Origin: Spironucleus salmonicida
Lineage: Eukaryota
NCBI RefSeq assembly: GCF_000497125.1
Contig: NC_090598.1
Coordinates: 558,001-622,000, forward strand
Direction of reading: 5' to 3'
DNA: 64,000 bases
The number at the start of each line of letters is the position of its first letter. Positions within the stretch are counted from its first letter, which is position 1. Position numbers and translations under genes: made by a program. The notes beneath the pieces are model-generated. The model did not search any database, was not told the DNA's origin, and saw only the letters and a program-made list of their open reading frames with translations. Positions 6,639 to 52,476 of the stretch are shown one piece after another.

Positions 6639-6736
6639 TTTTGGCGGTTATCATTTTAAATAATATAATAACCATTATTCATTATTTTACAGAAACTGTA
6701 AATTAGTATTATATAAATATAATAATATTTATTAAA

Positions 6737-7351
6737 ATGTTCGCCCAGCTATTGGAAAAGACGAAGAAGGAGGAGGCGAACCTGGTGATCTTCAAGGCGA
6801 TGGTGGCGGAGCAGAAGAAGCAGAAGGACGAGGAGGACAAACGCCAGGAAACAGCGTTTTACGAGGACTTCGAGCTGGAGCTGTTCGATGCGGAGAAGCA
6901 GCAGAAGGAGCGCAAGACCTAGCTGGCAACGGGGACGGCATTCCACCGCATCCCGTCCCGCAACAAGCAGCGCACGCAGCGCCAGATCCAGTCCCTGGTG
7001 CCGCAGGAGCGCATCGTGAACAAGTGGTCGCCGGAGGACGTGGCGGCCCTGCGCGAGAACATCCGGCAGGTGGGGCTCAACATCAACTTCCTGCACATCC
7101 TGATGCCAGAGCGCACCCAGAATGCAATCAAGGCGCGCATACGCCTCGAGAACCCTCACGAGATCACCGAGCTGGCGCGCCAGTGCCGGGAGATCCCGGA
7201 GCACGTGCGCCAGGTGTACGCGCAGCTGGGCCGGCGGCACGGGGCGCTCGACCTGGACCTAGACCTTTCGGAGTACGAGCACCAGCGCGAGGAGCAGGCG
7301 GGAATGGCGGAGGAGGTGCGGGACCTGGTGGGAGAGTTCGAGGGCTGGTGA
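6737..7351 (+). CDS. Myb/SANT-domain protein resembling TFIIIB Bdp1 SANT, 204 aa (copy 1)
   Basis: Supplied ORFs 6737 and 6998 join through [47 protein letters not shown]. Confidence 0.75.
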
Positions 7352-7470
7352 GCGCGGCGTGAATTTTTAGATTTAAGGAGGGAAAGGGAAAAGCTAGTGG
7401 AAGGGGTGAAATACCCGTATATACACATATAAAGGATAATCCCCACCCGGCTGCGAACGCCCATTCCTCA

Positions 7471-7704
7471 ATGTAGATCTTCGTTAAAACTCTCACCGGA
7501 AAAAACATCACCCTCGACGTCGAGCCCACCGAAACCATCCAGTCGCTCAAGGCCAAGATCCAGGACAAGGAGGCCATCCCTCCTGACCAGCAACGTCTTA
7601 TCTTCGCGGGTAAGCAGCTCGAGGACAACCGCACGCTCTCCGACTACAACATCCAGAAGGAGTCCACCATCCACCTCGTACTCCGTCTCAGAGGAGGCCA
7701 GTGA
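7471..7704 (+). CDS. Ubiquitin monomer with one extra C-terminal Gln (copy 1)
   Basis: [77 protein letters not shown]; codon 2 is TAG. Confidence 0.99.
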
Positions 7705-7706
7705 AT
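7700..7706 (+). terminator. Polyadenylation signal AGTGAAT overlapping the ubiquitin stop codon (representative instance)
   Basis: Matches the diplomonad AGTRAAY-type signal; NAG-TGA ends recur in many genes here. Confidence 0.6.
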
Positions 7707-7765
7707 GACGGTAATTTTCTTAGCACAACTAGTATCATATGTATAGTATACAATTCGAATCACCC

Positions 7766-8030
7766 ATGCCTCTCCAAATGCAGGTTACCACGGCCGCATT
7801 CTTGGCCCAGCACCACACCACCGAGCAGGACGCCAGTGCGCTCTCCGTCTACGAGATGATGTTCCGGTTCAAATTCCCGCACCGCCTCGCCGTGAAGCTA
7901 CACACGCTCCTCAACCCTAGGATTCCCATCAACTCACCTACCGCCAAACCGTTTGCGGAGATCCTTCAGCCTCGGTTGCGCTCTGTGATCTCCGCCCCAG
8001 ATCTGGCGCTTCTCTCCCCGCTGCTGAAGT
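7766..8030 (+). pseudogene. 5' fragment of the 16800-17654 gene, cut at the IR1 boundary
   Basis: Identical to the first ~88 codons of the full copy, then runs into AT-rich intergenic DNA. Confidence 0.75.
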
Positions 8031-8268
8031 AGTTCAAAGTTTTTAATATTATATTTTAGTCTGTAAATTTATTTACCTATTACTGTATAAGAATAATAAG
8101 TTTATATCTTTTTAACGTATAACTGTACGACAATATTTTGATTAACGCTAAAATAAATTATTCATTTTATATTGACAAAAGATTAAAAAGTTATACTATT
8201 AACAACAAAACAACAAATATATATTTAAATCTATATTATTAAATAATTAGAAAATACATTTCTTAAAA

Positions 8269-16799: not shown

Positions 16800-17654
16800 T
16801 CATTATTATTCATTATAATTATTATTTCTCTCTAATCCTTCAAAATTCAAAGAATAATAAACACGTCCTTTTATGTACAAAATATCCCTGAATTAAACTA
16901 CTTGAACACCAAAAATTCCACCCAATTTTCCTGCAAAACTACCACATATTAGTTATCCACTCAAACGAACACCAAAATGCTGAGATTTACAAAGGAGTGG
17001 CAATAACTAGTCTTAGTCAAGATCTAAAAATGGTGAAAAAATTGTATTCTCATTATTTTCTGGAATAGCCATTTCAGTTCCAGGAACAATCGATAAATTT
17101 GTAACTGAATTAAAACAAACCACGCAGCAAGAAACTTAATTTAAAAAATCTAATAATTCTAAATCTGAATTATTTAATATTTAAAATATATTATCTATAA
17201 TTAATAATTTAATTTATACATTATGTATTTTTTGTAAAATAGCTTCTTTATGCCGGAGGAGTGTAGGAGCGTCTGTTTTCAGAATATTAATTGATGTTAG
17301 ATATGGTTTTAGTTTTTAAATATGTTAAAATGTTGACTGCATAGTTTAAATGAGTAGTATTTCTGCAGTCTAATTTGTTGAGAAGAAGGACTTCAGCAGC
17401 GGGGAGAGAAGCGCCAGATCTGGGGCGGAGATCACAGAGCGCAACCGAGGCTGAAGGATCTCCGCAAACGGTTTGGCGGTAGGTGAGTTGATGGGAATCC
17501 TAGGGTTGAGGAGCGTGTGTAGCTTCACGGCGAGGCGGTGCGGGAATTTGAACCGGAACATCATCTCGTAGACGGAGAGCGCACTGGCGTCCTGCTCGGT
17601 GGTGTGGTGCTGGGCCAAGAATGCGGCCGTGGTAACCTGCATTTGGAGAGGCAT
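16800..17654 (-). CDS. Hypothetical protein, 284 aa, weak RecA/Rad51-paralog-like motifs; straddles the IR1 boundary
   Basis: Open frame checked to TGA at 16800; IKLLIIDNIF and VVCFNSVT. Confidence 0.75.
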
Positions 17655-17715
17655 GGGTGATTCGAATTGTATACTATACATATGATACTAGTTGTGCTAA
17701 GAAAATTACCGTCAT

Positions 17716-17949
17716 TCACTGGCCTCCTCTGAGACGGAGTACGAGGTGGATGGTGGACTCCTTCTGGATGTTGTAGTCGGAGAGCGTGCGGTTGTCCTCG
17801 AGCTGCTTACCCGCGAAGATAAGACGTTGCTGGTCAGGAGGGATGGCCTCCTTGTCCTGGATCTTGGCCTTGAGCGACTGGATGGTTTCGGTGGGCTCGA
17901 CGTCGAGGGTGATGTTTTTTCCGGTGAGAGTTTTAACGAAGATCTACAT
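17716..17949 (-). CDS. Ubiquitin monomer + Gln (copy 2)
   Basis: Reverse complement of 7471-7704. Confidence 0.99.
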
Positions 17950-18068
17950 TGAGGAATGGGCGTTCGCAGCCGGGTGGGGATTATCCTTTATATGTGTATA
18001 TACGGGTATTTCACCCCTTCCACTAGCTTTTCCCTTTCCCTCCTTAAATCTAAAAATTCACGCCGCGC

Positions 18069-18683
18069 TCACCAGCCCTCGAACTCTCCCACCAGGTCCC
18101 GCACCTCCTCCGCCATTCCCGCCTGCTCCTCGCGCTGGTGCTCGTACTCCGAAAGGTCTAGGTCCAGGTCGAGCGCCCCGTGCCGCCGGCCCAGCTGCGC
18201 GTACACCTGGCGCACGTGCTCCGGGATCTCCCGGCACTGGCGCGCCAGCTCGGTGATCTCGTGAGGGTTCTCGAGGCGTATGCGCGCCTTGATTGCATTC
18301 TGGGTGCGCTCTGGCATCAGGATGTGCAGGAAGTTGATGTTGAGCCCCACCTGCCGGATGTTCTCGCGCAGGGCCGCCACGTCCTCCGGCGACCACTTGT
18401 TCACGATGCGCTCCTGCGGCACCAGGGACTGGATCTGGCGCTGCGTGCGCTGCTTGTTGCGGGACGGGATGCGGTGGAATGCCGTCCCCGTTGCCAGCTA
18501 GGTCTTGCGCTCCTTCTGCTGCTTCTCCGCATCGAACAGCTCCAGCTCGAAGTCCTCGTAAAACGCTGTTTCCTGGCGTTTGTCCTCCTCGTCCTTCTGC
18601 TTCTTCTGCTCCGCCACCATCGCCTTGAAGATCACCAGGTTCGCCTCCTCCTTCTTCGTCTTTTCCAATAGCTGGGCGAACAT
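18069..18683 (-). CDS. Myb/SANT (Bdp1-like) protein (copy 2)
   Basis: Reverse complement of 6737-7351. Confidence 0.75.
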
Positions 18684-18745
18684 TTACAATAAGTGAATAA
18701 ATAGTACATATAAATTGAATGCTCCCTCTTTCATTCCTTTTATTA

Positions 18746-34763: not shown

Positions 34764-35518
34764 ATTAACATTTAAAATATTTATATAATATAATAATAAT
34801 TTATAAAATGATGATTAGATAAAGTCTTCAGAAAATCTGATACATTCCATAGCCATACCTGCCTCTTTTACGGATATATGTGGTATCACAGAATGCTCAT
34901 AGCGTCTACCGAAGTGATACCCTGCTCTAGACGAAGCACATTGTACTTTCTGCAGCAGTCACGGAGAGCATCAAAATCCAGCCAACTAAGTGTTAAAAAC
35001 CCTTTATAGCTTTAGTTTTAGCATGAGGTGACTGTTGCAGTTATCAAACATGATGGGTGTGTAACACCTTATTTTAAAAATTGATCAAAATAACGTGATC
35101 TAGTATGTTGAGGCTACTTATATTTACAGCCCAAATTAAACAGCTTGCCCTAAATTGGAGATACTTAATGTTGCTACAAATTCCAGCTCATTATGCTAGC
35201 GCAAAAAAAGTTTAGAATCGCCTGGTCCGCATTTCGCAACTAATTCCGTTGCCTGAAAGTACAGTTTCTGCTGAAATCATAATTTCAGTTGTCGGTATTT
35301 CAAGATTCAGAATGAGTGCTTTTGCCTTACTGGGAACGCCAAATTAAGAGACTTTCGTATCGTAAAATCAAAATTCGCATGGGCCTTGACGGTGGAACTT
35401 CCAGAAGCTGTCCGGTTGAATTTCGGTGCGATTGCTCCGAGCACCAAAAATTAGCGAAACGGGCCAAGTCCAAGCCATGCTAGAGGGAGTTCACACTCTC
35501 CATGCTCAGCTCCAAAGC

Positions 35519-36535
35519 TCACTGGCTGCTGGCGAGCTCCCCCATCGCCCGCTCCAGCGCGCGCTCCAGGTCGTCCCCTTCCCGGACCGGCCGCCCCAGA
35601 ATGCCCTCGCAGAAGGCCCGTGTGCGGCGCTCCAGCTCCTCCTGCTGCCGCTGGAGGGACTCTCCGCGCTCCTGTTCCTGCCGGATCTGGTGAGCGATGC
35701 GCGCCCTGGCATCTGCCTAGGAGTCGATCACCGCGCGCAGATCCTCGTTTTGGGCGACCTTCGCCTGGACCTCCTCGCAGACAGCGATATGCTCCAGCTG
35801 GCAGCGCTGGATCTGCTCCAGGGCGTGCTGCGTGCCGTTTTCGAGCATGATGGTCCGCACCTTGTCGTATGCCGCAAGCTCATCCATCTGGCGCAGCTAC
35901 GAGGCTGCATTAGTGCGTTCCCGCTCCACTGCGGTCTGGGTGTCCGTCACCTGCCGCGCTAGGACCTGCTGCCTGGCCACGAAGGCCGCGCGGCGTCGCT
36001 GGGCTGAGTGCAGGTCCTGGGCGATGCGGGAGGTCCGCTGTTGCAGCTCCTGGTTCTGGAGCAGTTCGTGCTCATGCTGCGTCTCGAACTCCGCGGACAG
36101 CTGCATGGTCTGCGCACTGGTCGCGGCGAGGGCCTCGATCTGGGTGTTCACGGTTTCCAGGATCGCTGAAGTGGCGCGGTACTCGGCACGCAGCGCCTCC
36201 AGCTCGGCGCACCCCTCCTCGTTTAGGGCCTCCAGACGGGCCTCGACGGCGGTCTCGAGAGCGAAGACCTCGCCCTGCTGGGCCTGGAGGAGGTGCATCT
36301 TCTCCTATACTTCGTATTCGCGCTGCTGATGGAGGATGGTCTGCCCCCGGAGCTGGCGCAGCGTGTCGCCCCGGGTCTGCTGCGGGCCGCCGCTGAGCCG
36401 CTGGATCTCTTGTCGCAGGTGCGCGTTCTAGCCAGCCGCCTGCTGGAGCGCACCTGCCGCGCTGCGGAGGAGGGCGTCTAGCTGCCGTGGGTCGTGCGGG
36501 GTGGGCTTGGTGCTAGCGGATAGGTTGCGCTTCAT
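35519..36535 (-). CDS. Coiled-coil protein, 338 aa (intact copy)
   Basis: MKRNLSASTKP...ELASSQ; open frame. Confidence 0.8.
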
Positions 36536-36891
36536 TCTGCGGTGCGGCGTATATTATATGCTAAGTGGTGTGATCGGCTGGAGGACCCTCGCATGCGTGG
36601 GCTGCCCCGCATACGCAGCCATTTAGCGTTTGAGCCTCTGGATATTTTACGACAAGCCGGCTGGGAATATGTACAGGCTACCGTATAGTATAGATATATT
36701 ATGTGGCGCAGTTTTAGTTTATTTAATCCCGCAGTATATAATACTATACCGCACACAATATTCATTCTACATGCTGCAGATAGAATAGCCAAGTATGTCC
36801 CCTTTTTTACTAGAATGATTAGCATAATCTGCAATGATAAATAAATAATCGCTGAATATAAGATGCGCTATAAGTAGGCCAATCCGAACTT

Positions 36892-37209
36892 ATGAATACG
36901 CCATAAGACCCTGGCTAGGGTTTGCCCCATAGGCGTATCAAACGAGGTAGTCGAAATCCAGAAGGTGCAGGAGTTTCATTCTATCTACGTGCACACATCG
37001 ACTGCAGATGCCTGGTACTCCAGTTCTACCCATGCCACAGATGCGCCGGATGCTGCACAGCTACCTTCCTGGGATTGGGTCTCTGTTGCGTCGCCCACTA
37101 CGGCCCGTAAGATAGACAAGTGCGACGTAAACCTCACTGGACAGCGATGTTATTCAGTGCCCTTCATTATAACTGTTTAACGGTCTGCCAGATGTGTTAC
37201 TGCTGGTGA
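36892..37209 (+). pseudogene. Degenerate paralog of the Cys-rich gene at 43692-44063
   Basis: CHRCAGCCTATFLGLGLCC matches CHKCVGCCTACFPGWGLCC; KIDKCDV lies in a shifted frame. Confidence 0.7.
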
Positions 37210-37246
37210 TCCGATTGTGGGCTTGGTTTAACTATAAAATGCGTAT

Positions 37247-37672
37247 TCACTATCTTCCAAAAATCTTCAAGTCTTATAGATTATCATAAGAATTTTTCCT
37301 TGCATTCTAGGATCTTACAATGGATGAGTATGAAGTGTTTCTCTTGAGACTAGAACGAGAGTTTAATAATCTATTTTACGTAAGTTTATGCGCAGCTTTT
37401 TCTACAGATATCAACTCTTTGTCTGATAATGGTTCGCACTAGTTTTATTGCAAAAATTGGTGAATTTGCTGTGTTTTAAGACGTTGAATCTTTACATTTT
37501 CAAGTTTATTCCGTATGGCCTGTTTCTCGATTTGAATTTCTTATATCGGAAATAGTACCAAGGGGTAGTCGCATGTGAATTTCGAAGTATCAATTTGGTG
37601 TATTTTTTAGATGTTGGCTATAAACTTTGACTCCTAGTTAAACGCATAATCTATTGCAGAGTTTTTCTTCAT
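37247..37672 (-). CDS. Hypothetical protein, 141 aa; paralog of 44097-44534
   Basis: YAFN, KFIA, YPxVxFP and LSDKExxSVEKAA shared with paralog. Confidence 0.85.
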
Positions 37673-38012
37673 TTCTGCAGATAAATATATTCATATCTTC
37701 TATTAGCTGTGCAATATTTTTTCATTATTAAAATGGAAATATAATTTTGCATATTAATGTCTAGTATTGTCTACTACACAAACTAGAAACCTAACATGTT
37801 TTTCCAAAAGACGGCGGGTGGTCTTTCAGCATAAATGCCCAACGACAGCCAAGAGCATGCGCCCGCAAGCCAGTAAAATCCTGGCACTGACCATCATACT
37901 TCTTCAAACTGACGTCCCTGTCGTGCGAAGATTCCATCCAGATATTTCATCCAGTCTGATCCTGAAAATTGTCTAAATGCACACTGAAAGCGCCCTTAAC
38001 CGCAAACAGGTC

Positions 38013-38768
38013 TCACTCCAGTAATGAAGCCTCCTCTTCATTGTCCGCACTGCGCCCGCTCTCGTCCGGGAACGCCTCGCGCTAAGTCTGCTCCGCGACG
38101 TCCCCGCGCGCAAGCTCCTCCGCCCGGCGGTACGGGCTGACGTCCTTCCACGCCACGTGCACGGCGTTCAGCTCGCTTACCACCTGCGCGAGGTAGTTCC
38201 CCGCAGTCAGTAACAGCACCAAATCGCGCGCTCGCGCCGCCGCCTGTAGCTGCACGACCACGCGTTGGTCCGTGAACTGCAGATGCTCGAACTGACGCCG
38301 CTGCAACAGCGTCTCCAAGTCCTTGCGGAGCTGCTGCGTGCGGATATCAAGAACTGAAAACTTGCCCTACACGGCAACCGCGACGGAGCACGGTAAGAAG
38401 GCAATGCGAGCTACCAGTTTCTACTGGATAAGAACGCCAGTTTCGATGCGGAAGAGGGCCTTGCGAACGGCCTGCTCGGTGCTCGCCAGCTGCCGGCGGT
38501 ACTTCTGCAGTACCGCCTCAGAGGTTCTGATAAAGTAGTCCAGATCCTTGTGGAACACAATAAGCTGCTGTGTGCTGATGTCGTTAAAGCAGAAAACTGC
38601 TTTCTGCACTCTGTAGGCTTCCTTATGCGATTTGATGTGAGGCTGCAGCGCAGAAATCGCCGACGAGAGGTTTTTCTAGCTGCTGATAATAACTTAGAGC
38701 AGTGCGGAGTCCTGACGCGATTTCTGCAAGAACTGTAGCGTTTTGAGCATGTCAGCCTCGTAGTCCAT
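38013..38768 (-). CDS. Hypothetical protein, 251 aa
   Basis: Supplied ORFs 38421 and 38082 join through TAG; mirror of 52477-53232. Confidence 0.75.
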
Positions 38769-38882
38769 TCTGATTTAAGAAATGAATAAAGCTAGGTTAT
38801 CACATATTATACAATAATATATATTTACTTTTTAAGACACAAATAACCCAATACGATCTAATCTCGCACAAACCAGTTAATT

Positions 38883-39962
38883 TCACTAATTGACCAGACC
38901 CACCACTCTCCTCATGACCTCAACGTCCCTCAGAAGCCCCCTACTCGTCTTGTTCAGCTGGCTCGCGCTCTCCATATATTTCAGGCCCTCTCTGACCTTC
39001 CCGCCGCCGCAGAGGCTCGCAGCGTGCATAGCGTGTATTTTGCTCTGCAGCTCCCGCGAAAAAGTGCTCGATTTGCCCTGTTCGAGCTGAATTTCGTGCT
39101 TATTTTCGACGATTTTCATCATCTGCGACGTCAGAATCAGCGAGTCGTCGAATTGGCCCTTCCGGAGGTAAATTTGGGACATGAAAACCGTCGCGTCCAT
39201 GAAAAGCGGCGCCTTTTGGATGATCTGCGCGCACAAATCGAGCGCGGACTCGAACTCCGGTGTCGGCCTGTTGGCGTAGTTCTTGGCCTGTTTGAGCATG
39301 ATCTGGACCGGCTGCGACTTGATATCCGGAATTATCGGCCCTGTTTGGTCGTCAAAGTACATGTCGCGATTGTCGCGCGCCGGGACGGCGTACTTGCGCT
39401 TCGTGAAGGTCGCCGTGAGGCTTACGGTGTTCGAATTTCGCGGCTCTGGGAGCTGCTATATAGCAGCAGTTTTGGGGTCGAAATTCGATGTCAGAATGCG
39501 CTTCGCGTCGTCGATTTGGCGCTACTTCAGGAGGCGCATTTCGTTGCGCTCCTGCTGCCTACCGAGCATCTGCTTCTCCTCGGCCTCGTGCTATGCCTGG
39601 GCCTTGATGTCGTTCGATTCGCGCGCCAGCTGCTGGTTCTGCAGCTGCAGGCGCTGGAACGCGGCGTTCCTGACCGCGAGCTGCTCGCTCTGCGCGAGGT
39701 GCCGGACGATTTCGCCCCAGCTCCCGTCCGCGCCCTTCTGGATCTCGAGCCTCAGTTGCTGCTTCTTGGCCCTGCATACCGAGTTTTGGGGCGAAACGCG
39801 GTGCGCGAAGTCCAGCACGAGCTGGTGCGAGGGCGCGATCAGCGAGAGGTAGGAGTCCGTGAGCGTGATCTCGATGTCCGTCGGCGGCAGCTGTGGGGGC
39901 AGCGCGACTACTACGAAAATCGCGGTGCTGGATTCTGAGATTTCGTATGCCAGGGAAAGCAT
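38883..39962 (-). CDS. DNAAF4: Dynein axonemal assembly factor 4 (DYX1C1/PF23)-like, 359 aa (copy 1)
   Basis: N-terminal CS/p23-like domain, coiled coil, LPEPRNSNTVSLTATFTKRKYAVPARD, TPR-like C-terminus. Confidence 0.75.
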
Positions 39963-40312
39963 TTTTAAAATGTGGAAGGGATGAAATACGCGTACGAATG
40001 CATAATCTCCACCAATTAGTGCTGTAGCATATAGCAAACGATATTTGGACGCATTGCACAAAATGAGTGCCTAGAAAGTCTCCAAAAGGGTAAAGCCCCC
40101 GCTAACGAATCTCTTAAAATACGCCGGCGGCGGGAGTGCGCCATAGCATGTCTGCGGGCCTTGTACGCGGCACAGGCGGCCAATCCTAGCCTAAACCCGG
40201 TGCTGGCGGAGCAGTTCTCAGCGAAATTTGGAGGCGTTGAGGGCAGTGAGCTATATGGAAAATGCCGTGCGCTGAATTGATTGAGAATGCAGTCAATTTG
40301 GTAAGTGACGGC

Positions 40313-40762
40313 TCATTCGTTCTCTTCTAGTGTCATTATAATCCTTTTCTTTGATTTCTTGTTTAGCCTGATAGATTCAGAGGTCACCACCTCTCGCTTC
40401 AGCAGCATAAAGTTCCGCCGAAAGGATCTCCCGAACCCTGGCTGCTCGTACTTGGCCTGCACTTGCTCTTTGGTAATATTCGTGTTGGCTAAATAGTATT
40501 CGTGGAGCGAACGGTACGACGGCTCCTGGGGAAACCCCAGCAAGGGATTGCCCTCTCGCGCTCGTATTTGCTCTAAAGAGTGTTTGGCCTGAATTCTTTT
40601 CTGCCTGTCGAGTTCCACTTGTTGCTTACAGAAGTATTCTTAGTCTCTCTCCTTGAGGAAAGGGGACTGAAGGTAATATTAGTACTCCGTCCTGCACACT
40701 TGCCTAAAGTATACCGGGCGCTGAAGTGCGGGTAAATGCGGACTGGTGAAGGAGAACGGCAT
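40313..40762 (-). CDS. Hypothetical protein, 149 aa
   Basis: Supplied ORF extended upstream through TAA to ATG. Confidence 0.65.
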
Positions 40763-41647
40763 TGTCCCTGCTTTTGAGCCTGCTAGTTTAGCACTACAAT
40801 AGATATAATATTAGTGTGGTGTCCTTTCCCTTAGGCGGATACAGTATAATAGAACCTATTGTTTACTATTTGCGTCACTGAGAGCTATGTAAAAACACGC
40901 AAAGACATGCGGTTCGGCTTAACCTACCCCTGCTGCCCATCAGTCCCGCAGCTACCATCATCCACCATTATGCATAGCTGGGAAATGCCACAGGCGCGGA
41001 ACGCCAACTAAACAATAATGGCGTAGTAATCGAGCGAATACTTACAAACGGCTGCCGCGCCTGCAGTGTAGGAGCTCCCATTATTAGTCCCGGATGGCTT
41101 TGCCACATTTAACCATCTGAACGCCGGCGCAAATGTTGCTTGTAGTTCCCATACCCTGGGCGCAGCCATAGCGTGCGCATCGGGAGGTACCTCCGCGGGG
41201 CCCGCACTAGCGTGCTTTGCAAGCGTCCCGGACGTTACCAAAGTATAGGCATGCGCGTAGTTGCTCTCCGCTGCATCAGACGCTAGTTGCGGACTAAACT
41301 CTAAGAATGCCGAGCCTGGGCGTATTAAATATATTTTGCAGGTTCTCTGGTGGCGCGCCGCCCCACAACGACACATCAACGAATATGGAGTGCCGTGTTT
41401 ATTATCAGCTTTGTACGCAGCCAGCTCACCAGCAGTCACGCCTACAAATAGTAGTTTATACCATACGCGACTTTGCCTTAATCGCATAATGCGAGCGTAT
41501 ACGCACACAAGGTCGCGATGAATGGATGCTGCACAGTTTCTATACACCGTGTTCAGCGCGTTTTGGAGGAAAACGGCTTCGAACCCCAATACTGCACAAA
41601 ATCAACAAATCAGGGATGCCAGTAAATACCTATTCTTGACTACGCCA

Positions 41648-43171
41648 TCACTCAACCGGCATCGCCCCCTAGTCGCACGCGTGTTTCCCACCGTCCTGCT
41701 AGCCGCCAGCCTCTTAACCCCCTTGCTGGTCGCCCCGCCAGCGCGCAACCTGCTCCCCGAACGCCCTGCTGCAGCTCCCAATCTGCGACACAATATCGAC
41801 CAAACAGACCCCCTTCAGATTCTTCATTCCCTGCAGGAAAATCAAGTTTCCAGCCTCATGCAAAAAGGTTTCAAACGCGAAAATTGAGCTCTCGGGGTCG
41901 ATTTTAATGCATTTGTCCAGTTTCATGCACTGGTTGCTGATCATCGCCTGCGCTTTGACGACCTCCGGGTGAATATTGGTCGTTTTCCCGGTCGTGATGT
42001 CCAAATAGCGCGTGAAGCGGCCGCAGGAGGTCAGAATCGGCGCGTAGCGCTCCGGGATCGGCCGCCGGCTCGCGATCTGCAGCACCCGCTCGCCCCAGTC
42101 GCTCAGCATCTGCTGCTGCTGCTGCGTGTTCTGGCGCTTGTGCTGCAGCGCCTCGCCCTTCTGGACAGCGCAAAACTCGCAGTTCAGCGCGCGCGCAATG
42201 GAGCCAATTTCGCCGCTTTCGAGCGCGGTCCAGCGGCCGAAATTCAGCAAATTCTCGCTAAATTGCAGCATTTCGATCTGCTCGATCTGCTCGATGTGGA
42301 GCGAAAAGATTTGCTACTCAAACTTGCTGCTGGCCAGTTTTTCGAGCGTAAGCACGCTGGCATTCGCTTGAAATTGGAATGGGGGTTCGATAACCGCGAA
42401 GGCGGTTATTTCGTCGATGGAGGGGGGCAGGGGGTAGATTTTTGACGGTTTGGGCTGGTGGTAGGTGGGGGTTGCCGTAAGCGGGGCCGCGAAGTGGTCA
42501 AAACTCGCCAATTTGAAGGACGTTGGGGCCTGGGCATTTTGAGCTGCATCCTACATATGCTAACCGATTTCTACGGCACCTTGCGACTCGGTTGCGGCGG
42601 TTTGGTCTTGTGGAATCTGCTTTTTCGCACCGGTTAGAGGCAGCTTCTAGCTCTGATAACTGCCCTTTACGTAGTCGCTGTAGCCGCCGTAGACGTTCTT
42701 ACGCACGCTTTTGCGTATTTCGTGCAATTCCTTCCCGCATTAAGTTGATTACTGCTCGTAAATTGAGCGAACTCTCGGCCTGTACTGGCTGCTTTTGGCG
42801 ACCTGGGCGTTGGCTTCTTTGCGGATTTTGATCTGTTTCTCCTCGCGCAGAAAGACGCTAATTTTCTCGAAATTGCTCATTTTGGACGCCCGGATCTCCA
42901 AATCGCTGTAGCAGGCGCGGATAAGGTCAAATTGCACCTGCTTGGTCGTCCCGCGCCTGAAAATTTTGCTGTGAAAGGTCTGCAGATTTTGAGAACTTTG
43001 GGACGTTTCAGCCTTGCACGCGCCCTGCTTTCCGCGGAAAAACACCTCCAGCAGGCCCTGAAACACCCTTAAAACGCTCTTGAACCGCACGGACTCGTAC
43101 TTCACGTACTTTGCCAGGTTGCGCGGAATTATGTAATGTTACTTTCTTTATATAGTGATAAGCCCGGACAT
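41648..43171 (-). CDS. 5'-truncated copy of the 47777-49597 gene with an 18-codon new N-terminus (chimeric ORF or pseudogene), 507 aa
   Basis: Homology stops at 43117; in-frame ATG at 43171 gives MSGLITIQRKQHYIIPRN-LAKYVKYES. Confidence 0.5.
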
Positions 43172-45367: not shown

Positions 45368-47668
45368 ATGACTTCTGATAAATTTTCTGAGCTTTTCTAA
45401 CATCAGCAAGAAACTGTTGAATTTGCAATATCAAAATTTTAGACTAAGCACGGAATTCTTATAGCGCATGCCCCGGGCCTCGGAAAAACTCCAATTTCTT
45501 GCGTTATCATAAAAGAGCTAATGCTGCAGAAAAAAGTGCGATTCTCGCTCGTAGTGGCCCCAAAATCAGTCCTATTGCAGTGGAAGCAACATCTCCAGGA
45601 ATGGGCTCAATCGAGCGTATGCTACTATCAGGGCGCGCAGCGCGCGGAAGCCTTTCGGCAGTTTCTGAAGGGCAGCTGCGGCATCTTCTTGACGACCTAC
45701 CAGACGCTAATTAACGACATCGAAATCATCAATTCCGCGGTTCTGAAGCGCCGCGCGGCGTTGGAAGTGCGCGAAATGGTCCCAGAGGCTCGTTTCGGCA
45801 ACGAAATTGTCGACGCAATCTACGCCGAAATCGGCTCTCAGTAGGCCGCTAAAGCTAGCTAGTAGCACTTTGAGCACCGCGATGGGACTGCGTTCGATTT
45901 GGCGATTTACGACGAAATCACAGAGCTCAAAAACAACAAATCCCAGCGCTTTTGCGCTCTGAAACCCCAGAAAATCCACTTCAAAATAGGCCTCACTGGA
46001 ACGCCGGTCATGAACAACATGGCTGAGCTGTTCAATATTGTCGAGTTTCTGGAGCCAGGCTTTCTGGGCTGTAGGCGGCGTTTTCTGAAGACTTTCGGAG
46101 ACAAAATCTCGTTGGCGAAGTTGCGGGATGCGTCTAGAGAGGAAAAGGCCGTCGGGCGCACTTTTGCGAAAAATTTGGTTAATGAGCTTAGTGATATCAT
46201 GATCCGATTCACAAAGGATAAACTGCAAGCAATAAAAGCCAATAAAGCAGAAATTCAGGTGTGGATCGATTTTTCGCCTTTATAAAAATTGTGCTACGAA
46301 CAGTATATTTCTAGCCCTCATTTTATCCACAGAAATATCGAAAAAGGCTCACTAAGTCATATGATTTCCTTAAGAAAAATTTGTGACCATTTGTATAAAG
46401 CACATGCAAATGATCTGCCTATTTAAAAGGAAGTTAGAGATTTTGTCATGTAAAATACACCTGAAAACATACGCAAATATATAGAATAGGAATCAGAAAA
46501 TACTGAACCTACGTATAATGATTAAAACTAATTTATTGGCGATCCTTCTGAAGTAGATATAAATTCTTCTTTTTCAGCAAAATTTGATATTTTGTTGTAG
46601 TTTCTTCATTCGTTTTAAGAACGTAGTTTAAAAACGATAGTTTTCTCTGAGTCGCTTACAACTCTCAATATAATAAAAGAATTACTTCCAGATACTTTAC
46701 CCCAGCCATTAGAGATTAATGGAAAAACCCTTACAACAGAAACTCGAACTAGAGTATGTGTTGCTTTTAATAAATCTAAATCCTTTTAAATTTTGTTAAT
46801 AACGACACGTGCTGGAGGTGTGGGGCTTAATATTTAGGGTGCATCTAGAATAATACTATTCTCACCTAATTTTAACCCATAATTAGAAGAATAAGCTATT
46901 AGTAGAGCCTGGAGAATTGGCTAAAAATCGGATGTTTTCATATACAAATTTCTTATGCGAAACTCTATTGAGGAGGTTATGGTTGCCCGTTAGTTACACA
47001 AAATATAAATAGCAAATGCAGCAACACAGGACATTTTAGCATAGATTAAGGTATAATACGATGATATTTAGAAGCTTTTTGATGTTCGATACGACGGGGA
47101 ACATTATAATAAAAAATTAATTACTAAAGTTGATGGAGTAGAAAAATTATTATCTTAAATGTTCAATTTTGATGAGTGGGAAGTTGGCAAGGACAAGGAG
47201 GAAATATAAATGCAAAAATCTATTTAAAAAGAAGGTAAATGTGATTTTGCTCTTTTTTACGACTAACAAGTAGAAGTAGTTTCAAGTGATGATGAATATT
47301 AAGACGATGTGGACTTAATTTAACAATTACGAGATGAATATTAAGAAGAAAACTATGTTAAAAGTGGACGTGTAAGAATAGTTACTAGCAAAAGCTCTCA
47401 AAGCGAATATGATTCTGCACATAGTAGCTAGTTCAGTGATGAGGGAAGTGGTACATTGATAAAATTTACCAATAATAATAATAAATCCATCTGTGATGAC
47501 ATAGACAAGGAAAACTCGTCATTAATTGTTATAGATGTCTGCGAGGACACTGTATCTATGCCAAAATAAACTGAAATTGAATATGTCGATATTTCAGATG
47601 ACTCTAGTATAACAGCAATTGAGCGTTCAATGAAACAACCAGAATCTAGCTATGATGACATAAGGTGA
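45368..47668 (+). CDS. SNF2-family ATPase, ERCC6/Rad26/PICH-like, 766 aa
   Basis: HAPGLGKT, VVAPKSVLLQW, DEITELKN, LTGTPVMNN, TTRAGGVGLNI, QAISRAWRIGQ. Confidence 0.93.
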
Positions 47669-47776: not shown

Positions 47777-49597
47777 ATGCAACATGAACTCGCAGAGCTA
47801 CTAATAACGACATAAATTAGGCGCATTCACGCCATCCAGCACATGCATTCAATTGCACGATAGCTCGCCGCTCCACCCCATGTATCGACGCACAAGTCGG
47901 CTCTGCAGACAACACAGACGGATATAATTCAAATCTCGAATTCCGAAGCCAACCGCCTAGAACTCGAAGTTAAACTGATATAAGCATCTCTCCAAAGCGA
48001 ATTTGATCCGGACGAATTTCTGCCATTCGAGCTGAAAATGGAGCAGTTTTGCTCTGGGAACACGCTGCGGGACGTGTTTATGCTCGCCAATTTGTTACAG
48101 ATGGAATTTCTTGATGTGTTTTAGAATCTGGCAAAGTACGTGAAGTACGAGTCCGTGCGGTTCAAGAGCGTTTTAAGGGTGTTTCAGGGCCTGCTGGAGG
48201 TGTTTTTCCGCGGAAAGCAGGGCGCGTGCAAGGCTGAAACGTCCCAAAGTTCTCAAAATCTGCAGACCTTTCACAGCAAAATTTTCAGGCGCGGGACGAC
48301 CAAGCAGGTGCAATTTGACCTTATCCGCGCCTGCTACAGCGATTTGGAGATCCGGGCGTCCAAAATGAGCAATTTCGAGAAAATTAGCGTCTTTCTGCGC
48401 GAGGAGAAACAGATCAAAATCCGCAAAGAAGCCAACGCCCAGGTCGCCAAAAGCAGCCAGTACAGGCCGAGAGTTCGCTCAATTTACGAGCAGTAATCAA
48501 CTTAATGCGGGAAGGAATTGCACGAAATACGCAAAAGCGTGCGTAAGAACGTCTACGGCGGCTACAGCGACTACGTAAAGGGCAGTTATCAGAGCTAGAA
48601 GCTGCCTCTAACCGGTGCGAAAAAGCAGATTCCACAAGACCAAACCGCCGCAACCGAGTCGCAAGGTGCCGTAGAAATCGGTTAGCATATGTAGGATGCA
48701 GCTCAAAATGCCCAGGCCCCAACGTCCTTCAAATTGGCGAGTTTTGACCACTTCGCGGCCCCGCTTACGGCAACCCCCACCTACCACCAGCCCAAACCGT
48801 CAAAAATCTACCCCCTGCCCCCCTCCATCGACGAAATAACCGCCTTCGCGGTTATCGAACCCCCATTCCAATTTCAAGCGAATGCCAGCGTGCTTACGCT
48901 CGAAAAACTGGCCAGCAGCAAGTTTGAGTAGCAAATCTTTTCGCTCCACATCGAGCAGATCGAGCAGATCGAAATGCTGCAATTTAGCGAGAATTTGCTG
49001 AATTTCGGCCGCTGGACCGCGCTCGAAAGCGGCGAAATTGGCTCCATTGCGCGCGCGCTGAACTGCGAGTTTTGCGCTGTCCAGAAGGGCGAGGCGCTGC
49101 AGCACAAGCGCCAGAACACGCAGCAGCAGCAGCAGATGCTGAGCGACTGGGGCGAGCGGGTGCTGCAGATCGCGAGCCGGCGGCCGATCCCGGAGCGCTA
49201 CGCGCCGATTCTGACCTCCTGCGGCCGCTTCACGCGCTATTTGGACATCACGACCGGGAAAACGACCAATATTCACCCGGAGGTCGTCAAAGCGCAGGCG
49301 ATGATCAGCAACCAGTGCATGAAACTGGACAAATGCATTAAAATCGACCCCGAGAGCTCAATTTTCGCGTTTGAAACCTTTTTGCATGAGGCTGGAAACT
49401 TGATTTTCCTGCAGGGAATGAAGAATCTGAAGGGGGTCTGTTTGGTCGATATTGTGTCGCAGATTGGGAGCTGCAGCAGGGCGTTCGGGGAGCAGGTTGC
49501 GCGCTGGCGGGGCGACCAGCAAGGGGGTTAAGAGGCTGGCGGCTAGCAGGACGGTGGGAAACACGCGTGCGACTAGGGGGCGATGCCGGTTGAGTGA
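47777..49597 (+). CDS. Hypothetical protein, 606 aa (full-length copy; enters IR2 at 48128)
   Basis: Supplied ORFs 48140, 48734 and 48974 share one frame joined by TAA/TAG. Confidence 0.8.
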
Positions 49598-50483
49598 TGG
49601 CGTAGTCAAGAATAGGTATTTACTGGCATCCCTGATTTGTTGATTTTGTGCAGTATTGGGGTTCGAAGCCGTTTTCCTCCAAAACGCGCTGAACACGGTG
49701 TATAGAAACTGTGCAGCATCCATTCATCGCGACCTTGTGTGCGTATACGCTCGCATTATGCGATTAAGGCAAAGTCGCGTATGGTATAAACTACTATTTG
49801 TAGGCGTGACTGCTGGTGAGCTGGCTGCGTACAAAGCTGATAATAAACACGGCACTCCATATTCGTTGATGTGTCGTTGTGGGGCGGCGCGCCACCAGAG
49901 AACCTGCAAAATATATTTAATACGCCCAGGCTCGGCATTCTTAGAGTTTAGTCCGCAACTAGCGTCTGATGCAGCGGAGAGCAACTACGCGCATGCCTAT
50001 ACTTTGGTAACGTCCGGGACGCTTGCAAAGCACGCTAGTGCGGGCCCCGCGGAGGTACCTCCCGATGCGCACGCTATGGCTGCGCCCAGGGTATGGGAAC
50101 TACAAGCAACATTTGCGCCGGCGTTCAGATGGTTAAATGTGGCAAAGCCATCCGGGACTAATAATGGGAGCTCCTACACTGCAGGCGCGGCAGCCGTTTG
50201 TAAGTATTCGCTCGATTACTACGCCATTATTGTTTAGTTGGCGTTCCGCGCCTGTGGCATTTCCCAGCTATGCATAATGGTGGATGATGGTAGCTGCGGG
50301 ACTGATGGGCAGCAGGGGTAGGGTTAAGCCGAACCGCATGTCTTTGCGTGTTTTTACATAGCTCTCAGTGACGCAAATAGTAAACAATAGGTTCTATTAT
50401 ACTGTATCCGCCTAAGGGAAAGGACACCACACTAATATTATATCTATTGTAGTGCTAAACTAGCAGGCTCAAAAGCAGGGACA

Positions 50484-50933
50484 ATGCCGTTCTCCTTCAC
50501 CAGTCCGCATTTACCCGCACTTCAGCGCCCGGTATACTTTAGGCAAGTGTGCAGGACGGAGTACTAATATTACCTTCAGTCCCCTTTCCTCAAGGAGAGA
50601 GACTAAGAATACTTCTGTAAGCAACAAGTGGAACTCGACAGGCAGAAAAGAATTCAGGCCAAACACTCTTTAGAGCAAATACGAGCGCGAGAGGGCAATC
50701 CCTTGCTGGGGTTTCCCCAGGAGCCGTCGTACCGTTCGCTCCACGAATACTATTTAGCCAACACGAATATTACCAAAGAGCAAGTGCAGGCCAAGTACGA
50801 GCAGCCAGGGTTCGGGAGATCCTTTCGGCGGAACTTTATGCTGCTGAAGCGAGAGGTGGTGACATCTGAATCTATCAGGCTAAACAAGAAATCAAAGAAA
50901 AGGATTATAATGACACTAGAAGAGAACGAATGA
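50484..50933 (+). CDS. Hypothetical protein, 149 aa (mirror of 40313-40762)
   Basis: Open frame under the Gln code. Confidence 0.65.
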
Positions 50934-51283
50934 GCCGTCACTTACCAAATTGACTGCATTCTCAATCAATTCAGCGCACGGCATTTTCCATATAGCTCAC
51001 TGCCCTCAACGCCTCCAAATTTCGCTGAGAACTGCTCCGCCAGCACCGGGTTTAGGCTAGGATTGGCCGCCTGTGCCGCGTACAAGGCCCGCAGACATGC
51101 TATGGCGCACTCCCGCCGCCGGCGTATTTTAAGAGATTCGTTAGCGGGGGCTTTACCCTTTTGGAGACTTTCTAGGCACTCATTTTGTGCAATGCGTCCA
51201 AATATCGTTTGCTATATGCTACAGCACTAATTGGTGGAGATTATGCATTCGTACGCGTATTTCATCCCTTCCACATTTTAAAA

Positions 51284-52363
51284 ATGCTTTCCCTGGCATA
51301 CGAAATCTCAGAATCCAGCACCGCGATTTTCGTAGTAGTCGCGCTGCCCCCACAGCTGCCGCCGACGGACATCGAGATCACGCTCACGGACTCCTACCTC
51401 TCGCTGATCGCGCCCTCGCACCAGCTCGTGCTGGACTTCGCGCACCGCGTTTCGCCCCAAAACTCGGTATGCAGGGCCAAGAAGCAGCAACTGAGGCTCG
51501 AGATCCAGAAGGGCGCGGACGGGAGCTGGGGCGAAATCGTCCGGCACCTCGCGCAGAGCGAGCAGCTCGCGGTCAGGAACGCCGCGTTCCAGCGCCTGCA
51601 GCTGCAGAACCAGCAGCTGGCGCGCGAATCGAACGACATCAAGGCCCAGGCATAGCACGAGGCCGAGGAGAAGCAGATGCTCGGTAGGCAGCAGGAGCGC
51701 AACGAAATGCGCCTCCTGAAGTAGCGCCAAATCGACGACGCGAAGCGCATTCTGACATCGAATTTCGACCCCAAAACTGCTGCTATATAGCAGCTCCCAG
51801 AGCCGCGAAATTCGAACACCGTAAGCCTCACGGCGACCTTCACGAAGCGCAAGTACGCCGTCCCGGCGCGCGACAATCGCGACATGTACTTTGACGACCA
51901 AACAGGGCCGATAATTCCGGATATCAAGTCGCAGCCGGTCCAGATCATGCTCAAACAGGCCAAGAACTACGCCAACAGGCCGACACCGGAGTTCGAGTCC
52001 GCGCTCGATTTGTGCGCGCAGATCATCCAAAAGGCGCCGCTTTTCATGGACGCGACGGTTTTCATGTCCCAAATTTACCTCCGGAAGGGCCAATTCGACG
52101 ACTCGCTGATTCTGACGTCGCAGATGATGAAAATCGTCGAAAATAAGCACGAAATTCAGCTCGAACAGGGCAAATCGAGCACTTTTTCGCGGGAGCTGCA
52201 GAGCAAAATACACGCTATGCACGCTGCGAGCCTCTGCGGCGGCGGGAAGGTCAGAGAGGGCCTGAAATATATGGAGAGCGCGAGCCAGCTGAACAAGACG
52301 AGTAGGGGGCTTCTGAGGGACGTTGAGGTCATGAGGAGAGTGGTGGGTCTGGTCAATTAGTGA
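51284..52363 (+). CDS. DNAAF4: DNAAF4 (DYX1C1/PF23)-like (copy 2)
   Basis: Mirror of 38883-39962. Confidence 0.75.
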
Positions 52364-52476
52364 AATTAACTGGTTTGTGCGAGATTAGATCGTATTGGGT
52401 TATTTGTGTCTTAAAAAGTAAATATTATTATTGTATAATATGTGATAACCTAGCTTTATTCATTTCTTAAATCAGA

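What the first reader, a model, noticed from the sequence alone, without database searches (positions are those of the whole stretch)
16800..18685. GC content collapses at the inverted-repeat edge inside one gene: footprint of arm-to-arm GC-biased gene conversion
Seen: the 284 aa gene crosses the IR1 edge at 17390. By hand count, 17401-17460 (inside) is 38/60 G+C and 17581-17640 is 40/60, while 17281-17340 (same gene, outside) is 13/60. Gln codons switch from CAG/CAA to largely TAA/TAG. The intergenic DNA inside the arms is also GC-richer and matches between arms. Inference: expression-driven codon selection cannot explain a step inside one CDS, and a brand-new duplicate would inherit AT-rich sequence. 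The arms therefore look old but continually homogenised with a GC bias, which would also locally purge the reassigned TAA codon.
Basis: partly seen in the sequence, partly recalled or inferred. Interest (0 to 1): 0.78.

Follow-up and report, generated by a model that had tools for sequence, protein, structure and literature searches.

The report
GC-rich inverted repeats in AT-rich diplomonad DNA
In a very AT-rich protist chromosome, two pairs of near-identical inverted repeats are GC-rich islands, and at one repeat edge the base composition flips inside a single open reading frame, which fits (but does not prove) copy-to-copy DNA repair that favours G and C.

Summary
The window is AT-rich, intron-poor DNA read with TAA/TAG=Gln, best fitting a hexamitid diplomonad (most likely Spironucleus salmonicida, by inference). 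It holds two inverted repeats: 1.3 kb (100% identical) and 8 kb (99.8%). Arms are 53% GC against 29% outside. All four small-repeat edges lie within 8 nt of a GC change-point. The annotated 284-aa ORF crosses one edge: GC3 0.78 and no TAA/TAG inside, GC3 0.16 and 13 TAA/TAG outside.

The rise also affects non-coding DNA, codon positions 1 and 2 and amino-acid content, so codon selection is excluded. Repeat-resident genes are GC3-richer than their single-copy paralogs in the spacer.

Against a simple reading:
- 22% of GC-rich tract bases lie outside the repeats, including a block inside a single-copy SNF2 gene.
- Three of eight repeat edges do not coincide with a GC step.
- The ORF has no homologs, so its continuity is unproven.
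- No substitution could be polarised.

Published work on S. salmonicida already reports sharp unexplained GC shifts (2007), lower GC3 in S. barkhanus orthologs (2010) and GC-richer duplicated regions (2022). None of the passages I read names GC-biased conversion. Verdict: real, partly supported, a new member of a known kind.

The parts
17385..18685 (.). Small inverted repeat, arm 2 (exact identity from 17390). GC 0.58. Carries the Myb-like gene, a ubiquitin gene and the first 88-97 codons of the 284-aa ORF, all on the minus strand.
6735..8035 (.). Small inverted repeat, arm 1 (exact identity to 8030). GC 0.58. Same content on the plus strand.
16800..17654 (-). Annotated 284-aa ORF ('gene C') crossing the repeat edge at 17390. 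GC3 is 0.78 inside and 0.16 outside. No homologs found.
17716..17949 (-). Ubiquitin monomer gene (77 aa plus stop) with TAG=Gln at codon 2, inside arm 2. The arm 1 copy is 7471-7704 on the plus strand.
   Evidence: (PF00240, E=1.2e-32)
18069..18683 (-). Myb-like gene (204 aa). Its ATG lies 2 nt inside the outer repeat edge. The arm 1 copy is 6737-7351 on the plus strand.
   Evidence: (PF15963, E=1.3e-5, below the curated cut-off)
7766..8030 (+). Truncated copy of the first 88 codons of gene C in arm 1. The open frame runs on to 8581 through DNA with no coding signal, and overlaps the MFS gene out of frame.
35135..43120 (.). Large inverted repeat, left arm (7986 nt, GC 0.525). The GC-rich tract ends at 43126. 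The outermost 241 nt are not GC-rich.
48125..56109 (.). Large inverted repeat, right arm (7985 nt). It differs from the left arm by 11 substitutions and 3 one-base indels.
47777..49597 (+). 606-aa ORF crossing the inner edge of the right arm at 48125. The 116 codons outside the arm are still GC-rich (GC3 0.41-0.66). This is a counter-example to a strict collapse at the edge.
45464..46168 (+). GC-rich tract (GC 0.52; GC3 0.50-0.78) inside the single-copy SNF2 helicase gene 45368-47668. It lies outside any repeat in the window.
36856..37690 (.). Two-gene module X (plus strand, Cys-rich) and Y (minus strand) inside the large repeat. It is paralogous to the single-copy module at 43320-44657 in the spacer and serves as a matched composition control.

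Best explanation
The window is nuclear DNA of a hexamitid diplomonad. The organism is inferred, most likely Spironucleus salmonicida. Strong AT-biased mutation keeps single-copy DNA near 29% GC.

Sequence that has a near-identical partner, here the arms of two inverted repeats, is kept identical by repeated copy-to-copy repair (gene conversion). I propose that this repair resolves A:T/G:C mismatches in favour of G:C. Over many rounds everything inside the homology block is driven GC-ward: third codon positions most, but also non-coding DNA, first and second positions and hence amino acids. The reassigned TAA/TAG glutamine codons are replaced by CAG.

Because conversion needs a homologous partner, the effect stops at the homology boundary. 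That gives the knife-edge step at 17390 inside the 284-aa ORF, whose 3' two-thirds have no partner.

Shown: the repeats, the composition step, its coincidence with the homology edges of the small repeat, its presence in non-coding DNA, and the paralog contrast.

Inferred: that conversion is ongoing, that it is GC-biased, that the GC enrichment came after the duplication, and that the ORF is one gene.
For: 1. Arms are 0.533 GC (18,573 nt) against 0.293 outside (45,427 nt). Of 21,009 HMM GC-rich bases, 16,288 lie in the arms, which are 29% of the window.
2. In arm 2 the GC-rich tract (17388-18678) equals the duplicated segment (17390-18685) at both ends. Arm 2 is tightly packed among genes: the RRP36 ATG is 35 nt from the Myb ATG, and gene C abuts. 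In all, 5 of 8 repeat edges lie within 8 nt of a change-point. Broad ramps are disfavoured at 3 of the 4 small-repeat edges (dlnL 3.1-11.6).
3. The effect is not confined to synonymous sites. Genes in the arms (1,986 codons) have GC1/2/3 of 0.61/0.37/0.78 and GARP 0.25. Genes outside (4,542 codons) have 0.38/0.29/0.26 and GARP 0.15. Non-ORF stretches in the arms are 0.25-0.50 GC against 0.12-0.24 outside, including 885 nt at 0.50 GC with no codon periodicity.
4. Matched paralogs: X has GC3 0.60 in the repeat and 0.32 in the spacer; Y has 0.34 and 0.17. Third positions at identical residues are S/W 29 times against W/S 8 times, p=7.5e-4. A diverged AT-rich paralog pair outside the repeats gives 13 against 6, not significant.
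5. The genes in the arms use the host code: 27 in-frame TAA/TAG among 208 Gln codons, including ubiquitin codon 2. They are therefore native.
6. Arm differences cluster at the outer end, 8 of 14 in the outermost 821 of 7,986 nt, p=2e-5. That end is also the AT-richer part of the arm. This is as expected if the interior is homogenised more often.
7. Literature, if the organism is S. salmonicida. Duplicated regions (>=2 kb, >=95% identity) are 44.7% GC against 30.7% (PMC9509377, passages). The 14 genes with GC3s above 75% all have S. barkhanus orthologs below that value, with small dN (PMC2874811, section 7). Most high-GC3 genes show no sign of lateral transfer (PMC1805757, passages).
Against: 1. 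4,721 GC-rich tract bases lie outside the repeats. The clearest case is inside the single-copy SNF2 gene: GC3 0.50-0.78 over codons 41-280, then 0.17-0.35. Its edges are about as sharp as can be resolved. No protein of 421-1341 aa other than the gene's own product exceeds 50% identity to that part. A shorter or unannotated second copy was not excluded.
2. In the right arm of the large repeat the GC-rich tract starts 305 nt outside the homology edge, covering the 5' end of an intact 606-aa ORF. This is what a recent partial copy of an already GC-rich gene would give. My reading needs an extra assumption, that the arm shrank.
3. The outermost 241 nt of both large arms, and gene Y inside them (GC 0.32), are not GC-rich.
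4. Strength. In a two-copy model GC3 of 0.76-0.80 needs G/C to win 90-95% of mismatches; with 70% the arms would equilibrate at 0.31-0.44 GC. A population-scaled view (B about 2.4-2.9 by the standard formula GC*=1/(1+(u/v)e^-B), my inference) softens this but was not tested.
5. Gene C has no homolog and its structure model is unusable (pLDDT 37). The coding score of the 62 codons next to the edge is only +0.07 bits per codon. Two abutting genes in the same frame, with no TGA between them, remain possible.
6. No outgroup DNA, no second isolate and no reads were available, so bias and direction are unmeasured.
Confidence: 0.5

Rival explanations
1. Recent copy-and-paste of DNA that was already GC-rich for some other reason. 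The arms are young duplicates, or two insertions of one block. The 284-aa ORF is a chimera: a truncated GC-rich gene reads on into a neighbouring AT-rich gene because TGA is the only stop codon.
For: - The arms are 100% and 99.8% identical, as young duplicates would be.
- The same truncated ORF in arm 1 runs on for 183 codons through DNA with no coding signal, so long chance read-through happens here.
- The coding signal next to the edge is weak (+0.07), and an in-frame ATG lies 16 codons past the edge.
- At the large repeat's inner edge, the arm holding the intact 606-aa ORF stays GC-rich for 305 nt beyond the homology, as a source locus should.
- Flanks show no residual homology, z from -1.7 to 2.4.
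Against: - Neither small arm shows the expected GC-rich continuation of the truncated gene. A third copy carrying it is absent from 1.84 billion representative proteins, where only P0001 matched.
- If arm 2 is the source, a pre-existing GC tract would have to end within about 8 nt of both later breakpoints.
- It leaves the origin of the GC-rich DNA unexplained.
- It does not predict the paralog contrast or the published GC excess of duplicated regions (PMC9509377).
Confidence: 0.25
2. GC-rich tracts come from a regional process that does not depend on repeats. Candidates are local mutational bias, replication or chromatin domains, or allelic recombination hot spots with GC bias. Duplications merely arise or persist more often in such tracts.
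For: - GC-rich tracts exist without a partner in the window: SNF2 45464-46168, 28346-29335, 32561-33324, 3724-4771 and 62384-63658.
- There is an intragenic step in single-copy SNF2.
- The 2007 survey proposed regional mutational bias (PMC1805757, passages).
- The 2022 paper links higher GC with chromosome ends and cysteine-rich gene arrays that carry more allelic variation (PMC9509377, passage).
Against: - It does not explain why the tract in arm 2 matches the duplicated segment at both ends, nor why 5 of 8 homology edges are change-points.
- Partners of the 'single-copy' tracts may lie outside the window. This could not be checked.
Confidence: 0.15
3. [quoted passage not shown]
For: A ubiquitin gene lies in the small arm. 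GC3 is the most elevated class.
Against: - Non-coding DNA in the arms is elevated, to 0.50 over 885 non-periodic nt.
- GC1, GC2 and amino-acid content shift.
- The step falls inside an ORF.
- In S. salmonicida, highly expressed genes centre on GC3s of about 0.4, and the extreme-GC3 genes are weakly expressed (PMC1805757, passages).
Confidence: 0.02
4. The GC-rich arms are foreign DNA (lateral transfer or contamination) or an assembly artefact.
For: Composition differs sharply from the surroundings. The perfect identity of the arms could come from assembly or polishing.
Against: - Genes in the arms use TAA/TAG as Gln in frame, 27 codons.
- (A)GTGA stop contexts occur in genes of the arms as in the others.
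- Each arm has its own two unique junctions, and the spacers of 9.3 and 5 kb carry ordinary genes.
- The large arms differ at 14 sites, so they were assembled separately.
- The published assembly reports normal read coverage over the two largest duplications it examined (PMC9509377, passage). Reads for this locus were not available to me.
Confidence: 0.03

Closest known systems
[quoted passage not shown]
   Same: Near-identical inverted arms separated by a unique spacer. The arms are GC-richer than the flanks, also after genes are masked. Boundary shifts are invoked there to explain intermediate GC in spacers and flanks.
   Different: - Magnitude: 46.3% against 41.2% there, 53-58% against 29% here, with GC3 0.78 against 0.26.
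- Arms here are 1.3 and 8 kb in a compact, intron-poor protist genome.
- The primate case rests on polarised substitutions (bias about 0.70, GC* 60.9% against 39.9%). Here nothing is polarised.
- Here the shift rewrites amino-acid content and the use of a reassigned codon.
The unexplained GC-rich regions and extreme-GC3 genes of Spironucleus salmonicida (PMC1805757, 2007; PMC2874811, 2010; PMC9509377, 2022)
   Same: An AT-rich hexamitid genome with sharp shifts from about 30% to almost 70% GC. GC3 lies above the regional GC, non-coding DNA is also shifted, and the genes are native and weakly expressed. Duplicated regions are GC-richer. The window shows all of these features.
   Different: In the passages I read, those papers describe the pattern at contig or genome scale and call it hard to explain. 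None reports base-pair coincidence with repeat edges or names GC-biased conversion. No paper in the searched library holds both 'Spironucleus' and 'biased gene conversion'. That the window is from this species is my inference.
Plastid inverted repeats: genes moved into the repeat gain GC and evolve more slowly (PMC5010901, PMC4524490; search listing only, titles and starts of abstracts)
   Same: Residence in an inverted repeat that is kept identical goes with higher GC.
   Different: Organelle genomes with many copies per cell, much smaller shifts, and the main effect is slower substitution. This window is nuclear DNA.
GC enrichment of multi-copy families (ribosomal arrays, histone genes, human segmental duplications), as cited in the Discussion of PMC8981503
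   Same: Repeated DNA that exchanges sequence becomes GC-richer than single-copy DNA.
   Different: Those are families of many copies. Here two copies suffice, and the edge is resolved to a few bases.

Membership tests
Inverted-repeat or palindrome arms shaped by GC-biased gene conversion | Near-identical inverted arms with a unique spacer | tested here: met
   1301 nt at 100% identity with a 9,349-nt spacer. 7,986 nt at 99.8% with a 5,004-nt spacer.
Inverted-repeat or palindrome arms shaped by GC-biased gene conversion | Arms GC-richer than flanks, including non-coding DNA | tested here: met
   0.533 against 0.293 overall. Non-ORF stretches are 0.25-0.50 in the arms and 0.12-0.24 outside.
Inverted-repeat or palindrome arms shaped by GC-biased gene conversion | GC excess ends where homology ends | tested here: inconclusive
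   5 of 8 edges lie within 8 nt of a change-point. At 48125 the tract runs 305 nt beyond the arm. At 35135 and 56109 it stops 241 nt inside.
Inverted-repeat or palindrome arms shaped by GC-biased gene conversion | Excess of AT-to-GC over GC-to-AT substitutions in the arms, polarised with an outgroup | not testable with these tools
   No DNA of a related eukaryote was reachable. The only open genome collection holds bacteria and archaea. All 11 arm-to-arm substitutions are A/T against G/C, 4 at CpG, but they are unpolarised.
Inverted-repeat or palindrome arms shaped by GC-biased gene conversion | Evidence of ongoing arm-to-arm conversion | tested here: inconclusive
   8 of 14 arm differences lie in the outermost 821 nt, p=2e-5. 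This is suggestive of less frequent homogenisation at the edge. No isolates or reads were available.
Published GC-rich regions of Spironucleus salmonicida | Hexamitid code, intron-poor compact genes, AT-rich background of about 30%, (A)GTGA stop context | tested here: met
   Long ORFs appear only under table 6. Pfam domains sit in uninterrupted ORFs. Background is 0.293 GC. G precedes TGA in 16 of 32 ORF ends, and AGTGA occurs in 11 of 32, as described in PMC3916229.
Published GC-rich regions of Spironucleus salmonicida | Sharp shift to 55-70% GC, with GC3 above the regional GC and non-coding DNA also shifted | tested here: met
Published GC-rich regions of Spironucleus salmonicida | The window comes from that species | not testable with these tools
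   The window's own proteins are listed without names. A 1.8-Mb contig fits a chromosome-scale assembly. The species is inferred only.
Codon-usage selection in highly expressed genes | Bias confined to synonymous sites of whole genes | tested here: not met
   Non-coding DNA, GC1, GC2 and amino-acid content shift. The step falls inside an ORF.
Laterally acquired or contaminant DNA | Genes do not use the host's reassigned code | tested here: not met
   27 in-frame TAA/TAG codons in the genes of the arms, including ubiquitin codon 2.
DNA transposon with terminal inverted repeats | Transposase gene and target-site duplication | tested here: not met
   No transposase domain among the 30 ORFs scanned. 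The junctions show no duplicated target and no flank similarity.

The most novel reading that the evidence does not exclude
In this diplomonad, any sequence that acquires a second copy is driven by very frequent or very strongly GC-biased copy-to-copy repair from about 25% to 55-80% GC. This is fast enough to rewrite codon usage, amino-acid content and the use of reassigned TAA/TAG codons, and it stops within a few bases of the end of homology.

That would explain the 'peculiar' GC-rich regions reported as unexplained since 2007. It would also be the strongest footprint of GC-biased gene conversion known in any eukaryote, in a lineage with no observed sex. The single-copy GC tracts, such as the one in SNF2, would then be relics or would have partners elsewhere in the genome.
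Probability: 0.4. Interest if true: 0.75.

Novelty: new member of a known kind. Interest (0 to 1): 0.55.

Why it matters
GC-biased gene conversion is usually inferred from shifts of a few percent over megabases or millions of years. Here a 29-point jump in GC (GC3 0.16 to 0.78) sits at a homology boundary that is defined to the base.

If repeat-dependent conversion is the cause, this genome offers three things:
- A natural, high-contrast system to measure conversion bias, tract ends and the speed of compositional change.
- A case where a neutral repair bias overrides protein sequence and reshapes the use of a reassigned stop codon.
- A concrete, easily tested answer to why S. salmonicida has GC-rich islands, which its genome papers left open.

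If it is not the cause, the coincidence of repeat edges and GC steps still has to be explained.

Tried and rejected
**Homologs and structure of gene C**
- The word-index search and the full HMMER scan of 1.84 billion representatives found only the protein itself. Continuity of the ORF and the composition of orthologs could not be tested.
- The structure prediction without an alignment gave pLDDT 37 and is unusable. No fold search was run on it.
- The ESM Atlas listed Rad51-paralog clusters at 0.89, below the tool's own 0.9 bar. Pfam at E<=10 and PDB sequences at E<=10 gave no support, so this stays a lead only.

**Organism**
- A ubiquitin search meant to identify the organism returned only generic poly-ubiquitins and was uninformative.

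**Repeat flanks and edges**
- Residual homology beyond the repeat edges (eroded arms): none, z from -1.7 to 2.4.
- Sigmoid-width fits, meant to show that only repeat edges are sharp, did not discriminate. The SNF2 tract edges also fit best as sharp, weakly.

**RNA and second copies**
- Rfam on the whole window at gathering scores, and on 39900-41700 at E<=1: no match. tRNA scan: none.
- A search for a second copy of the SNF2 GC-rich part among proteins of 421-1341 aa found nothing above 50% identity except the gene's own product.

**Not checked**
- The rest of this genome.
- The metagenome and viral contig collections, which are closed.
- Supplementary files of the papers, which I did not open.
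Full report
**What the window is**

Long ORFs appear only when TAA and TAG are read as glutamine. Between 5000 and 21000 there are 65 ORFs of at least 100 aa under table 6, against 8 under the standard code. Pfam domains sit in uninterrupted ORFs: MFS, MatE, SNF2, RabGAP-TBC, RRP36, a lysine methyltransferase, ankyrin, LRR and ubiquitin. No tRNA gene and no Rfam family was found.

G precedes the TGA stop in 16 of 32 ORF ends, and AGTGA occurs in 11 of 32. This is the stop and polyadenylation context described for Spironucleus salmonicida (PMC3916229, passages). The background GC of 0.293 is close to the 30.7% given for the non-duplicated part of that genome (PMC9509377). The SNF2 protein is recorded on a 1.8-Mb contig.

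I therefore treat the window as a hexamitid diplomonad, most likely S. salmonicida. This is an inference.

**The observation**

- 38/60, 40/60 and 13/60 G+C at the three stated places.
- A repeat of 1301 nt, 6735-8035 against 17385-18685. It is exactly identical over 6735-8030 / 17390-18685.
- An annotated 284-aa ORF, 17654 down to 16800 on the minus strand, that crosses 17390.

Inside the arm the ORF's 88 codons have GC1/2/3 of 0.60/0.41/0.78 and use only CAA/CAG for Gln (5 codons). Outside, its 195 codons have 0.36/0.27/0.16 and use TAA 11, TAG 2, CAA 2, CAG 2.

Change-points estimated without reference to the repeat fall at 6742, 8027, 17388 and 18679. An HMM gives tracts 6742-8026 and 17388-18678. 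The contrast at 17390 is at the 99.4th percentile of all positions. The two-edge contrast of the small arms is matched by 0.02% and 0.2% of placements.

**Anatomy of the small repeat**

All three genes in arm 2 are on the minus strand.
- A Myb-like gene (18683 to 18069). Its ATG is 2 nt inside the outer repeat edge and 35 nt from the divergent RRP36 gene.
- A ubiquitin monomer (17949 to 17716) with TAG at codon 2.
- The 5' part of the 284-aa ORF.

Arm 1 carries the same block in a gene-poor gap. There the truncated ORF runs on for 183 codons through DNA with no coding signal in any frame, and into the MFS gene out of frame.

In arm 2 the AT-rich part scores +0.16 bits per codon in frame over 194 codons, the best of six frames (next best +0.01). 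Only 3.2% of frame scores of 62-codon intergenic windows exceed 0.10. The 62 codons next to the edge score only +0.07. The ORF has no homolog and no usable structure model. 'One gene' is therefore likely but unproven.

**A second, larger case in the same window**

Arms 35135-43120 and 48125-56109 (7,986 nt) are 0.525 GC. They differ by 11 substitutions and 3 one-base indels. All 11 substitutions are A/T against G/C, and 4 are at CpG. Eight of the 14 differences lie in the outermost 821 nt, p=2e-5.

The edges behave differently from one another.
- The left arm's inner edge is a sharp step (tract end 43126).
- At the partner edge, the GC-rich tract begins 305 nt outside the arm. It covers the 5' end of an intact 606-aa ORF whose outside codons have GC3 0.41-0.66.
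- The outermost 241 nt of both arms are not GC-rich.

**Not codon selection, not foreign DNA**

Genes in the arms (1,986 codons) have GC1/2/3 of 0.61/0.37/0.78, GARP 0.25 and FYMINK 0.22. Genes outside (4,542 codons) have 0.38/0.29/0.26, GARP 0.15 and FYMINK 0.35. Gln codons are CAA 31, CAG 150, TAA 7, TAG 20 in the arms, against 80, 34, 184, 70 outside.

Non-ORF stretches in the arms are 0.25-0.50 GC against 0.12-0.24 outside. They include 885 nt (40763-41647) at 0.50 GC with equal GC at all three codon phases and no Rfam match. In-frame TAA/TAG in the genes of the arms shows they are native.

**A matched control inside the window**

A two-gene module occurs both in the large repeat (36856-37690) and as a single copy in the spacer (43320-44657), with 40-45% amino-acid identity. 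The repeat copies are GC3-richer: X 0.60 against 0.32, Y 0.34 against 0.17.

At identical residues, third positions are G/C in the repeat and A/T in the spacer 29 times, against 8 the other way, p=7.5e-4. A diverged AT-rich paralog pair outside the repeats (15156-15782 / 19561-20067) gives 13 against 6, not significant.

**What speaks against a simple 'repeat equals GC' rule**

- Of 21,009 GC-rich tract bases, 4,721 lie outside the repeats.
- The SNF2 gene is single-copy in the window and one Pfam domain spans residues 12-343. It has GC3 0.50-0.78 over codons 41-280 and 0.17-0.35 from codon 321 on.
- The SNF2 tract edges fit best as sharp, weakly. No second protein of 421-1341 aa resembles that part closely.
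- Partners outside the window, or unannotated fragments, could not be looked for.

**Mechanism**

My best reading (confidence 0.5) is a repeat-dependent, GC-favouring homogenisation, most simply GC-biased gene conversion between arms, acting against strong AT-biased mutation.

Its main strength is that in arm 2 the GC-rich tract equals the duplicated segment at both ends. Arm 2 is the natively packed locus. A process that needs a homologous partner predicts this. A pre-existing tract would match by coincidence only.

Its main weakness is strength. A two-copy model needs G/C to win 90-95% of mismatches to hold GC3 at 0.76-0.80. At the ~70% bias reported for primates the arms would reach only 0.31-0.44 GC (PMC8981503). 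With population-level fixation a scaled bias B of about 2.4-2.9 would suffice. That figure is my inference from the standard equilibrium formula and was not tested.

The rivals are:
- a recent paste of already GC-rich DNA with a chimeric ORF (0.25);
- a repeat-independent regional process (0.15);
- codon selection (0.02);
- foreign DNA or an artefact (0.03).

**What is already in print**

- The 2007 survey of S. salmonicida reports shifts from about 30% to almost 70% GC within contigs. It also reports weakly expressed native genes with extreme GC3s, and says neither mutational nor selective scenarios easily explain them (PMC1805757, passages).
- The 2010 comparison finds that the 14 genes with GC3s above 75% all have S. 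barkhanus orthologs below that value, despite small dN (PMC2874811, section 7 read).
- The 2022 assembly paper states that duplicated regions average 44.7% GC against 30.7%. It mentions gene conversion only for cysteine-rich gene arrays (PMC9509377, passages).
- The 2014 genome paper does not contain the words 'gene conversion'.
- No paper in the searched library holds both 'Spironucleus' and 'biased gene conversion'.

The pattern is therefore known at coarse scale. Two things are new here: its coincidence with homology edges at base resolution, and the explicit conversion-bias explanation. GC-biased conversion in palindromes is itself a known kind (PMC8981503). Hence 'new member of a known kind', unusual for its size.

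Noticed in passing
window 45368-47668 (tract 45464-46168): The single-copy SNF2 helicase gene has an internal GC3 block (0.50-0.78, codons 41-280) followed by GC3 0.17-0.35. Its best non-self matches are SNF2 proteins at 22-30% identity over most of the region searched; among those that carry a name, all are bacterial.
   Followed up: partly
window 35800 / 55444: A one-base indel between the large arms shifts the frame of the coiled-coil-like ORF. It is 461 codons in the left arm (35519-36904, minus strand) and ends about 69 codons earlier in the right arm (54341-55516, plus strand). Either one copy is broken or there is a homopolymer error in the assembly.
   Followed up: partly
window 40763-41647 (mirror in the right arm): An 885-nt stretch at 0.50 GC with no codon periodicity in any frame and no Rfam match. 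It is GC-rich DNA of unknown role inside the large repeat.
   Followed up: partly
window 36856-37690 and 43320-44657: A two-gene module is present in each large arm and once in the spacer, at 40-45% amino-acid identity. It comprises a Cys-rich small protein on the plus strand and an unknown protein on the minus strand. This is an older duplication next to the repeat.
   Followed up: yes
window 15156-15782 and 19561-20067: A diverged pair of AT-rich paralogous ORFs (45% amino-acid identity, direct orientation) flanks arm 2 of the small repeat. The pair is not GC-enriched.
   Followed up: partly
window 62384-63658: GC-rich tracts (0.55) covering ORFs 62307-63215 (plus strand) and 63131-63652 (minus strand) at the end of the window. 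Any partner copy would lie outside the window.
   Followed up: no
window 16800-17654: By language-model features, the 284-aa ORF's nearest clusters are all Rad51 paralogs (score 0.89, below the tool's bar). Pfam and PDB sequence searches give no support.
   Followed up: yes
window 14112-14438 and 20903-21400: Two small cysteine-rich (CXXC) membrane proteins with a basic tail after the transmembrane helix. They resemble the cysteine-rich membrane protein families described for diplomonads.
   Followed up: no
window 29143-31515: A 790-aa ORF with 128 TAA/TAG codons, which makes an extremely glutamine-rich protein. It has no Pfam match.
   Followed up: no
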